Below, in pieces: positions 45,738 through 48,154 of a DNA stretch of 64,000 bases. The position numbers and the translations under genes are program-made. This DNA comes from Nemertoderma westbladi (taxonomy: Eukaryota; Animalia; Xenacoelomorpha). Location of the stretch: positions 62,001 to 126,000 of the forward strand of contig JAUCBJ010007821.1 of assembly GCA_032718475.1 (NCBI GenBank). Reading direction: 5' to 3'. Positions within the stretch are counted from its first letter, which is position 1. The number at the start of each line of letters is the position of its first letter. Below the pieces are notes generated by a model, which made no database searches, had not been told where the DNA came from, and saw nothing but the letters and a program-made list of their open reading frames with translations.

Positions 45738-45965
45738 CTAGTGTTGCAACAGTTCAAACTGGGACGGTTTTGGGTATAGAGTCTCCAAGAGTTCCCTCAC
45801 GATTCCCTTAACAATGTGGGCATTGGGTTTGTTTTGATCGACGCCATCATTAATACAAATAAACTTCTTAGTGTGGCGACGGTATTCATCCATCTGTTTT
45901 TTTGTTTCGGAAACGCTGTTTGTTAAATACACATATTGCTCGTGGTAGGTTGACATGGCTTCAAG
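45738..45965 (-). CDS. GNPTAB: GNPTAB-like Stealth protein, 3' exon (CR4)
   Basis: KKFICINDGVD...RELLETLYPKPSQFEL corresponds to Stealth CR4 (human KFVCLNDNID..FPIPSQFEL); the 5' boundary is inferred. Confidence 0.75.
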   Translation of the reverse strand, partial: LEAMSTYHEQYVYLTNSVSETKKQMDEYRRHTKKFICINDGVDQNKPNAHIVKGIVRELLETLYPKPSQFELLQH

Positions 45966-46837
45966 CTTCCAGAAAATTTGAAACCTTCCGGAAACCACAA
46001 TTTTTCATCGAAAATCTCGAATTTTGAATTAATTGATTCCAGTGTCCCAACCCCCTAGATTAAGTGTGAAAGTGAGCAATATTTGGGGATGGTTGAGTAG
46101 GGCGGCAGCACTTAAGCTGATTTTAATTCTTAAGTTATTAATTTATACCAATTTGAGTGTTATTCTAATTAGATACATAGGCTTTCTGGCTTAAAATAAA
46201 AGAATCCAAATAATAATTTGACTGCAAGTTCTCAAGTTCGATGTTAATTCTGTAATTGTACCAAGTTTTTTATTTACAGTTAGTTAGTATGGATGGAATT
46301 CACGAATAATTTAACAACTGATCACAGGCTGTTTAGTTAGTAGGACAGTAGTATGGCTTCAGTCAATCTGATAGTAGCACTAGCGCATAAAAGTCTGATA
46401 GTTTCTACCGGATACAAACTGAAAGTAAATGATCTAACAGAAAATAATATAACCTGGTAGTCGTAGTAGTGTAGTACCGGTAAGTTTTTTGTGGAACTAA
46501 ATGATATTCCGAAGCAATTTTATTCAGCAAAATTATAAAAACAAGATACAGAAAATCAGTTTTTGTGTGGAAATAAATTCTATTCAGAAGCATTTTTAAT
46601 AGACTGGGCCATATATTGACATGAAATTCAGAAATATGGAGTATATTGTTTGACTTTATAAATTCTTATAAATTCGATCTACTTTTGATGGTTTAAATTG
46701 TACTGTACGTACAGTACTAAATTCTCTTTCCCTTTAATCTCAGGTTTTTAGGGAGTGAAAAATCTCAAAAATCTTCGAAATTTATCAGAATCTTACGGAA
46801 ACCTAGTTTCCGGGTTTCCAAATTTTGTGGAGACCTG
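45962..46837. mobile_element. 876-bp hAT-type MITE inserted in the GNPTAB-like coding sequence
   Basis: Imperfect TIRs CAAGCTTCCAGAAAATTTGAAACC / CAGGTCTCCACAAAATTTGGAAACC; 8-bp TSD CATGGCTT (45954-45961) and CATGGTTT (46838-46845). Confidence 0.8.
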
Positions 46838-48154
46838 CATGGTTTCGAACTGATATTTATTGCGACTGCTGTAGATAGAGGATTTATTTATCATCAACAG
46901 GAGAGGTTTACATGAAAGGAAGATTTCTCTAGATACTGTTCGGCTGGTTGAGTTGCTGTCCTTGTCTAACTGCAGCGATTTATCTGTGTTACTTTCAATG
47001 CAGTCGGATATGACATTCTCCATTTCAGCTAATCTGGAGTTTGATAGCGGTATTGGGTAAAGCCTGCTTGCGAGCACTCTCAACTCTCTGTTGGATAGCA
47101 CCCCGGAGTCGTCTGTGTCGAGATTATCAAAAACTTGGCTAAAATCAAGTTCCACTTTGGCATCCATCAGATAGTTGAAGTAGGAGAAGGCAAATTGCAT
47201 ATCTTCATCGTGACGTAGTTTATGGGAAGCTGTTTTAAGGAATTCTTCATGAAAGATTTCATGTAATTCCTCTATAATTCGTTTATTGAGAAATAACGGC
47301 GTATGGGATATCGAATACCGGGTCTTGCGCCCAAACATTTTGTTATATAATTCATTCACATAAGTCAAAGTATTGACGTAATTGCCGAATGGCCTGTTGT
47401 TTTTTTTTCCAGGTGCGGCAAAATTCGTCTTGTAGATACGCGGTCCATTGGTGCGTGTGATAAAGTCTGAGGGCCAGATTGGCGCACCAAACATAACATC
47501 ATCATTGAGGTAGAGGAAGTTCTCGGAGAGACCTGGAATGCGATGAAGTTGAGACTCTATTGCGGGGGAACCGAAGGTGGGAAGATTCGACTTGTTAGCA
47601 AATATCTCATTGTGAGTTACTATGGTAACCCGGGGATTGCTAAGGTTCAACCAGTATGGGATTTGCCCATTGGTCACGATGTAAATGTGTCGAAGCCACG
47701 GGGCATACAGGTCAACAGAACGTAGGGAGTATCGCAACTCCTCGTTGTCATAAAAATGGTTGGTACTTGTACGACCCACGACCGATTGTTGACTCTTCAC
47801 CCTCATTTCCATGTTCATCTCCCATTCCAATTCCCTTTGGACTTTCTCCAATTCTACTAACATTTCAGGGTCTGAACCATTCACCCAGGTGTAGACTAAG
47901 TCTACAGGAAACAGTTTGTCAGGATGTAAGTCATTCATCCATGTGCTGTCTAAGACATCACGTAATTGCTTGGTGGGGTTTAATACCTTCTTCCAGGGAT
48001 GCAGATTCAGTGGTAAGGAATCATAAATATTATCATTGTGTTTGACTTCTGTCGTGAAATATACCACGAAAGGCAGAAGGAGTATGAAACCAGCTAGACA
48101 TATCTTCAAATGATGGGCCTGTCTCACTGATGAGCGCACACATCTAGGCAACAT
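46835..48154 (-). CDS. GNPTAB: N-acetylglucosamine-1-phosphotransferase alpha/beta-like (Stealth family), 5' exon
   Basis: N-terminal TM helix; CR1 [16 protein letters not shown]2 [30 protein letters not shown]3 SHTP; EF-hand [12 protein letters not shown]. Confidence 0.9.

What the first reader, a model, noticed from the sequence alone, without database searches (positions are those of the whole stretch)
45738..46845. hAT MITE acting as a probable new intron (introner-like) inside the GNPTAB-like gene
Seen: the only interruption of the coding sequence is an 876-bp element with TIRs and an 8-bp TSD. Removing it and one TSD restores [23 protein letters not shown], collinear with human KNKYRFEIM-GEEEI..KFVCLND. 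Each TIR supplies a splice dinucleotide on the coding strand: CAG|GT at 46835/46834 and TTTTCTGGAAG| at 45966/45965. Splicing there is in frame and adds five residues (QLEAM). An alternative pair, CC|GTAAGA with GGAAG|G, is also in frame. The TIRs and TSD have decayed, yet the downstream CR4 exon is still open with conserved motifs. Inference: the element is spliced out, meaning intron gain by a DNA transposon in a previously intronless CDS.
Basis: partly seen in the sequence, partly recalled or inferred. Interest (0 to 1): 0.85.

Follow-up and report, generated by a model that had tools for sequence, protein, structure and literature searches.

The report
Transposon imprecisely cut from enzyme mRNA
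An 876-base jumping element sits in the coding region of one copy of an animal sugar-phosphate-transferase gene, and one public run that behaves as RNA holds versions lacking most of it, cut at different sites than proposed, so this is likely a leaky, imprecisely removed insertion backed up by intact sister copies rather than a clean new intron.

Summary
The element is real: 876 bp, an 8-bp target duplication (7 of 8 match) and inverted ends of about 35-40 bp, splitting a compact GNPTAB-like gene just before CR4. One run that behaves as RNA (X2, poly(A) at 45484) holds five forms. These are a GT-AG junction 46802-45985 (in frame, +22 residues, depth 39), a non-canonical 865-nt skip (frameshift, 104.5), the retained element (25.3), an exact empty site (124.6) and an empty paralog (28.9). 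The two internal skips are not listed in two DNA runs, but empty sites are, probably as a paralogous locus. Homologs vary by at most 4 residues at this loop (114 of 120 scored), and selection on the 3' exon is inconclusive. Best reading: a partly spliced exonic transposon in a redundant gene copy. It is not a demonstrated introner, and 'hAT' is unproven. Both cuts fall inside the inverted ends, so SOS-type excision is a live rival, as are DNA deletion alleles and reverse-transcriptase skips. Look-ups of the scan's earlier notes showed no report of this element.

The parts
46838..48154 (-). 5' coding part (codons 1-439) of a compact Stealth/GNPTAB-like gene: likely N-terminal membrane anchor, CR1, CR2, CR3, EF-hand-like region
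   Evidence: Pfam CR1/CR2/CR3 above cut-off, EF-hand below cut-off; best solved match S1S3, E 2e-102
46838..46845 (-). Upstream copy of the 8-bp target-site duplication
45962..46837 (-). 876-bp non-autonomous element with inverted ends (MITE-like, low copy)
   Evidence: other diverged copies seen as variants, indels and a loose end at 45965 in DNA runs; longest frame inside is 86 aa stop to stop
46798..46837 (-). 5' inverted end
   Evidence: duplex with the 3' end, -38.2 kcal/mol
45962..46006 (-). 3' inverted end
45985..46802 (-). 818-nt segment missing from an RNA-run contig; GT-AG ends; in frame, leaves 35+23 element bases plus one duplication (+22 aa, 532 aa)
   Evidence: joint 45979>46798, CT..AC at cut +5, X2 depth 39, zero in X1 and X3; predicted from contig ends before the call; translation
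46798..46804 (-). 7-nt direct repeat, copy 1 (AGGTTTC), at the 5' cut of the 818-nt skip
   Evidence: both=7; sequence
45980..45986 (-). 7-nt direct repeat, copy 2, at the 3' cut of the 818-nt skip
45969..46833 (-). 865-nt segment missing from a second RNA-run contig (slides by 2; best reading GT..TG); leaves 11 element bases plus one duplication; frameshift, stop after 442 aa
   Evidence: joint 45968>46834, X2 depth 104.5, zero in X1 and X3; translation on the window sequence
46793..46795 (-). In-frame stop inside the element; ends the retained form at 453 aa
45954..45961 (-). Downstream copy of the target-site duplication
45738..45953 (-). 3' coding part with Stealth CR4 and the stop codon
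   Evidence: Pfam CR4, E 8.5e-15
45484..45737 (-). 3' UTR ending at a poly(A) site at 45484
   Evidence: 15-T loose end in X2; no templated A run there

Best explanation
A non-autonomous DNA transposon lies in the coding sequence of one copy of a small GNPTAB-like gene family and is likely removed from part of the transcripts by the spliceosome at weak cryptic sites inside its own inverted ends (46802 to 45985), which leaves 22 extra residues. Other forms of this copy keep the element or lose it out of frame and would lack CR4. The copy is therefore probably weak or dead, and it is tolerated because element-free sister copies are expressed. Shown: the element, the junction coordinates in assembled contigs, their frames, and empty sites in DNA. 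Inferred: that X2 is RNA (poly(A) tail, no cover of the flanks), that the junction arises at RNA level and by the spliceosome, that the empty forms belong to a second locus, and that the +22 product is impaired. The 865-nt form sits on one SNP haplotype only. It is most likely cis-determined (a DNA remnant or a sequence variant of that allele), and I could not resolve it.
For: The 818-nt joint has GT-AG ends, is in frame, is in X2 (39) and has zero depth in DNA runs X1 and X3. It was predicted from contig ends beforehand. Its donor TAG|GTTTCC resembles the one native donor checked in the window, OGDH GAG|GTTTGT. The retained form is at 25.3 and the frameshift form at 104.5. Empty sites occur in DNA: X1 joints at 60.4 and 38, and 2 X3 contigs with a matching loose end. 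DNA depth fits two loci: X1 element path 115.8 and interior 89-106 against flank 104, with empty forms summing to 98; X3 window-type 105.7 and other type 98.8. Spacing across the site is 17-21 residues in 114 of 120 homologs. CR4 lines the donor-substrate pocket and helps form the dimer (PMC8913297, passages).
Against: The 818-nt joint lies on a 7-nt direct repeat that itself contains AG|GT, so a polymerase skip or a DNA deletion there would look GT-AG too. A donor closer to consensus (GTAAGA, 46796) and a better acceptor (46055) are present, yet no joint uses them. Only one RNA-like run was found, it is recorded as 'DNA?', it is contigs rather than reads, and it has no DNA from the same sample. 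Contig depth is a poor measure of abundance. In X2 the exact-empty form shares upstream and downstream contigs with the window haplotype, so it may be an allele of this locus rather than a paralog.
Confidence: 0.48

Rival explanations
1. SOS-type excision: the paired inverted ends trigger spliceosome-independent cutting and ligation. This gives several imprecise junctions, of which the 865-nt and 818-nt forms survived assembly.
For: Both junctions have both cuts inside the inverted ends, one near the outer end and one toward the inner end of the duplex. The deeper junction is non-canonical and out of frame. The better consensus splice sites are not used. These are the listed properties of SOS splicing (PMC12779559, main text parts 1-2 and Discussion). 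An X1 DNA contig with the same SNPs aligns 18 bases into the element end (inferred from the from_end values), so that haplotype can carry the element.
Against: Each junction is confined to one haplotype in X2, which points to cis differences. In the 941-nt fold the ends do not pair, and forcing them costs about 8 kcal/mol. One of the two junctions is GT-AG. About 15% of element-derived depth is retained (25.3 of 168.8), against 90-100% removal reported for Tc1.
Confidence: 0.2
2. No RNA-level removal: the two skips are DNA deletion or excision-footprint alleles in the animals behind X2, or the 818-nt form is a reverse-transcriptase jump across the 7-nt repeat.
For: There is microhomology at both joints (7 and 2 nt). 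The 865-nt form reads as duplication + 11 element bases + duplication, like a repair scar. It is haplotype-restricted. Template switching at direct repeats is a known source of false junctions (PMC4176328, passages).
Against: Neither joint is listed in DNA runs X1 or X3 (2 samples). Two independent deletions would be needed. The region is AT-rich and not predicted to form the end-to-end stem.
Confidence: 0.22
3. One reading: a clean, selected new intron from an introner-like family, spliced at the terminal pair (+5 aa) or the GTAAGA pair, giving a working enzyme.
For: Depth suggests the element is on both chromosomes in two DNA samples. One terminal base and one duplication base differ, so the insertion is probably not brand new. 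CR4 is open, and C472, N474 and D475 match the homolog consensus. Introners that add codons are known (PMC9860276, passages).
Against: Neither pair was seen, and the 12-contig model leaves no depth for them. The in-frame form is 39 of 168.8 element-derived depth. The GTAAGA donor is absent from most other copies (46795 differs in 323 of 471 depth in X1). No second intronic copy is known. The synonymous excess is not significant.
Confidence: 0.1

Closest known systems
SOS splicing of exonic DNA transposons in C. elegans and human cells (PMC12779559; abstract, main text parts 1-2 of 13, Discussion, passages read)
   Same: Exonic element with inverted ends; several junctions in or near those ends; short insertions left behind; some products out of frame
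   Different: Here only two junctions from assembled contigs, one GT-AG, each on one haplotype; a sizeable retained fraction; dependence on AKAP17A/CAAP1/RTCB untested; host is a different, unidentified animal
Introners (PMC9860276, PMC12130899, PMC11282704; passages read)
   Same: TIR/TSD element that carries GT and AG and can add codons (the Aureococcus example adds 4 aa with an 8-bp duplication)
   Different: Families need at least four similar introns and correct splicing; here one exonic copy, +22 aa, a minor in-frame form and no genome to count copies
Maize Ds/Ds1 (hAT) spliced from exons at cryptic sites near its ends (recalled; PMC5395267 and PMC5432752 seen only as search listings)
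   Same: 8-bp duplication; imprecise, partial removal using sites in the element ends; leaky alleles
   Different: Superfamily not established here; inverted ends of about 35-40 bp are longer than typical hAT ends (recalled)
GNPTAB / engineered S1S3 minimal phosphotransferase (PMC11418123, PMC8913297; passages read)
   Same: CR1-CR4 plus EF-hand region; 46% identity over 79% of the 5' part; empty form collinear at the site
   Different: Natural, intronless apart from the element; no Pfam hit for Notch or DMAP; ends just after CR4 without the second membrane segment; long branch (1.48) in a quick tree; activity untested

Membership tests
Introner | Transposon hallmarks (TIR and/or TSD) | tested here: met
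Introner | Correctly and efficiently spliced out of the host mRNA | tested here: not met
   in-frame GT-AG form 39, frameshift form 104.5, retained 25.3 in the one RNA-like run; contig depth is only a rough guide
Introner | At least four similar introns in non-paralogous genes (PMC9860276) | not testable with these tools
   no genome held; one copy in the window; other copies seen only as short contigs
SOS-spliced transposon | Element with inverted repeats inside an exon | tested here: met
SOS-spliced transposon | Cuts in or near the inverted repeats, several sites, indels left | tested here: met
   2 of 2 internal junctions
SOS-spliced transposon | Sites rarely GU-AG | tested here: inconclusive
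   1 of 2 is GT-AG; the other reads GT..TG on the window sequence
SOS-spliced transposon | Removal at RNA, not DNA, level | tested here: inconclusive
   not listed in DNA runs X1 and X3, but these are other samples than X2
SOS-spliced transposon | Inverted repeats base-pair | tested here: inconclusive
   -38.2 kcal/mol in isolation; not formed in the 941-nt fold, +7.9 kcal/mol if forced
SOS-spliced transposon | Needs AKAP17A, CAAP1, RTCB; independent of the spliceosome | not testable with these tools
   needs experiments
hAT superfamily | 8-bp target-site duplication | tested here: met
   also typical of P and Zisupton/KDZ elements (recalled)
hAT superfamily | Short inverted ends starting YARNG (recalled consensus) | tested here: not met
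   the 5' end starts CAGGT and the pairing runs about 35-40 bp
hAT superfamily | Autonomous partner with a hAT transposase and the same ends | not testable with these tools
   no genome; none among the 17 long window frames scanned; 0 matches of the end in metagenome contigs
MITE | Short, non-coding, AT-rich, TIR plus TSD | tested here: met
   876 bp, 32% GC, longest frame 86 aa
MITE | High copy number | tested here: inconclusive
   summed DNA depth over the element is about 90-975 against about 104 for the flank, while neighbouring repeats reach 1e4-1e6: a few copies only; summed depth is not a copy number
GNPTAB orthologs | Stealth CR1-CR4 | tested here: met
GNPTAB orthologs | Notch repeats, DMAP domain, second membrane segment | tested here: not met
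   no Pfam hit; the frame ends a few residues after the end of the CR4 match

The most novel reading that the evidence does not exclude
This is a natural, standing example of SOS-type, spliceosome-independent transposon excision in a distant animal lineage. An old exonic element on both chromosomes is cut out of the mRNA at its paired ends, and one junction has landed on a GT-AG frame-keeping repeat, which would be a snapshot of the step from SOS-tolerated insertion to true spliceosomal intron.
Probability: 0.18. Interest if true: 0.75.

Novelty: new member of a known kind. Interest (0 to 1): 0.42.

Why it matters
Imprecise removal of exonic DNA transposons from mRNA is known, so the basic case is ordinary. 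Its value is as a cheap natural test locus: PMC12779559 names only three endogenous SOS targets in C. elegans and leaves open whether the process protects genes over evolutionary time. This locus has an element that looks old and common, two different junctions inside its inverted ends, and empty sister copies as controls. One matched DNA and direct-RNA experiment would separate spliceosome, SOS and DNA scar.

Tried and rejected
No whole genome is held, so copies could not be counted. The run search listed no holder on record as RNA; X2 was judged RNA from its own features. The wide lay was swamped by flanking repeats and listed no joint at the element. The element end gave 0 matches in metagenome contigs. 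The protein found no related loci in metagenome or viral contigs (44 and 4 pattern hits, none confirmed). Rfam gave 0 matches in 44-50 kb. OGDH homologs were all 53-59% identical (120 listed), so the host is only 'a divergent animal'. The tree (36 of 121 rows, quick mode, careful search unfinished) puts the gene on a long branch in a mixed set with vertebrate, mollusc, annelid and protist rows, apart from the five short ENA proteins; it gives no support for a viral or foreign origin and cannot place the gene. Selection test: only the variants the tool listed were used (12 of 14 differences on the paralog contig). The 3' exon gave 5 synonymous and 6 changed codons against 20% expected (p=0.07 on 12 sites); the 5' part gave 6 and 11. 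This cannot isolate the time after insertion. A 5-bp duplication (CCATG) was considered and rejected because the empty paralog keeps AAG on the host side and the ends are symmetric only with 8 bp. Precise splicing as the source of the exact-empty form was rejected because the same joint is in DNA (X1). No structure or complex prediction was run. One paper search returned nothing. The SOS search (7 of 9 listed) showed no title on a natural case in another animal; this is not an exhaustive check.

Full report
Observation. The minus strand carries a 439-codon frame from 48154, an 876-bp insert (46837-45962) between AAACCATG and AAGCCATG, and a 71-codon tail ending at 45738. Pfam gives Stealth CR1-CR3 before the insert and CR4 after it. 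Without the insert and one duplication the protein has 510 aa and is collinear with the S1S3 form of human GNPTAB. The insert's ends align better than all but 1 of 2143 window pairs at the same spacing, a scan whose range includes the element itself. They pair as RNA at -38.2 kcal/mol over about 35-40 bases, with 0 of 300 shuffles as low. Seventeen in-frame GT/GC-AG pairs exist near the ends, so frame alone does not pick a junction.

Public runs. Four of 8 listed runs hold the stretch, all recorded as 'DNA?'. X2 behaves as RNA: no cover at 48422-49024 or 45420-45472, and a 15-T loose end at 45484 where the genome has no such run. X1, X3 and X4 cover the flanks and behave as DNA (X1 and X4 are one sample). 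From the ends of one X2 contig (45957-46827) I predicted a junction skipping 46802-45985, and one search showed it. X2 holds five forms. (1) The 818-nt GT-AG skip, depth 39: in frame, 532 aa, 35+23 element bases kept. (2) An 865-nt skip, depth 104.5, on a contig with 9 differences from the window: frameshift, 442 aa. (3) The retained element, 25.3: stop at 453 aa. (4) An exact empty site, 124.6. (5) An empty paralog about 89% alike, 28.9. A model of the 12 contigs laid, with two fitted depths and contig ends that I inferred for four unlisted contigs, reproduces all 17 bins checked out of 30. Assembled contigs drop rare forms, so this shows that they are not major, not that they are absent.

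DNA. The two internal skips have zero depth in X1 and X3. Empty sites do occur: X1 joints at 60.4 and 38, and two X3 contigs with a matching loose end. Depth bookkeeping fits two loci. In X1 the path into the element is 115.8 and interior pieces are 89-106 against 104 for the flank, while the empty forms sum to 98. In X3, window-type and other-type upstream depths are 105.7 and 98.8. I read this as the window's locus carrying the element on both chromosomes, with a sister locus lacking it. This is inference from noisy contig depths, and in X2 the exact-empty form shares its neighbouring contigs with the window haplotype, so an empty allele is not excluded. Other copies of the element exist: variants, indels and a loose end at 45965 in 2 X1 contigs whose consensus ends CAG, implying that the window's third terminal base is derived. 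Depth points to a few copies, far below neighbouring repeats. Most other copies differ at 46795, so the GTAAGA donor is private to this copy, and no joint uses it.

Effect on the protein. The spacing across the site is 17-21 residues in 114 of 120 homologs and 17 in the empty form, so +22 is far outside the natural range. CR4 lines the donor pocket and, with the CR3-CR4 spacer, forms the dimer (PMC8913297, passages), so the 442- and 453-aa forms are likely inactive. Differences between the window and the paralog in the 3' exon give 5 synonymous and 6 changed codons (p=0.07): inconclusive, and not specific to the time after insertion.

Mechanism. For the spliceosome: GT-AG ends, and a donor like the window's OGDH donor (one example). 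Against: the junction sits on a 7-nt direct repeat containing AG|GT, the setting in which reverse transcriptase makes false junctions (PMC4176328, passages), and better consensus sites are skipped. For SOS splicing (PMC12779559): both junctions cut inside the inverted ends, and the deeper one is non-canonical and out of frame. Against: each junction is tied to one haplotype, and the ends do not pair in the full fold. The 865-nt form also reads as a repair scar (duplication, 11 element bases, duplication). I put spliceosomal cryptic splicing in a redundant copy at 0.48, DNA scar or enzyme skip at 0.22, SOS at 0.20 and a clean selected intron at 0.10.

Comparison. It works like the leaky, imprecisely removed exonic transposons known from C. 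elegans and (recalled) maize Ds. It is not filed as an introner: efficient splicing was not met and the four-copy rule (PMC9860276, passages) could not be tested. It is not filed as hAT: an 8-bp duplication is shared with other superfamilies, the recalled end consensus is not met, and no partner transposase was found among 17 long window frames. 'Previously intronless' is supported only by a 1468-base paralog contig from the RNA-like run, of which about 130 bases were laid, by empty-site joints in DNA, and by the unbroken frame. The host is an unidentified divergent animal; earlier unreviewed notes suggest an acoelomorph worm, which I did not test. Look-ups by sequence, by words and near this place returned nothing; the two genome-wide look-ups (8 shown of 60 and of 69) showed no report of this element.

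Verdict. Interest 0.42; novel reading (natural SOS case on the way to an intron) probability 0.18, interest 0.75 if true.

Noticed in passing
window 45738-48154 (-): The host gene is a natural minimal phosphotransferase whose two best database hits are engineered truncations (S1S3 and a similar catalytic-domain construct). It has no Notch or DMAP hit and no C-terminal membrane segment. A column that is Asn in 93% of 113 homologs has Ser452 here, with Asn one residue earlier.
   Followed up: partly
window 46838-46845 and 45954-45961: The divergent empty paralog appears to match the downstream duplication, while the exact-empty form matches the upstream one (inferred from joint coordinates). The exact-empty form may thus stem from precise loss or gene conversion rather than from the ancestral state.
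   Followed up: partly
window 3202-7856 (-): OGDH in two long frames joined by a 1607-nt GT-AG intron (6764-5158); best hits only 53-59% identical.
   Followed up: partly
window about 6470-6515 and 44935-44980: A near-identical stretch of about 40 bases occurs, in opposite orientation, in the OGDH intron and in the high-copy repeat downstream of the gene, where over 100 contigs per DNA run have loose ends (44932, 44980). Seen by eye.
   Followed up: no
window 39617-42487: About 2.8 kb of short tandem units open in several frames (Pro/Thr-rich), following a BEL/Pao pol fragment; extreme strand skew.
   Followed up: no
window 19949-39028, 49106-49711, 59032-62798: Retrotransposon remains: BEL/Pao pieces, an RVT_2 (copia-type) frame at 34312-35907, a LINE with a PHD finger ahead of its endonuclease at 22690-25863, and a very high-copy RT fragment at 49106-49711.
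   Followed up: no
window 46485-46522 and 46561-46598: A 38-nt imperfect direct repeat inside the element; other copies show rearrangements at this spot.
   Followed up: no
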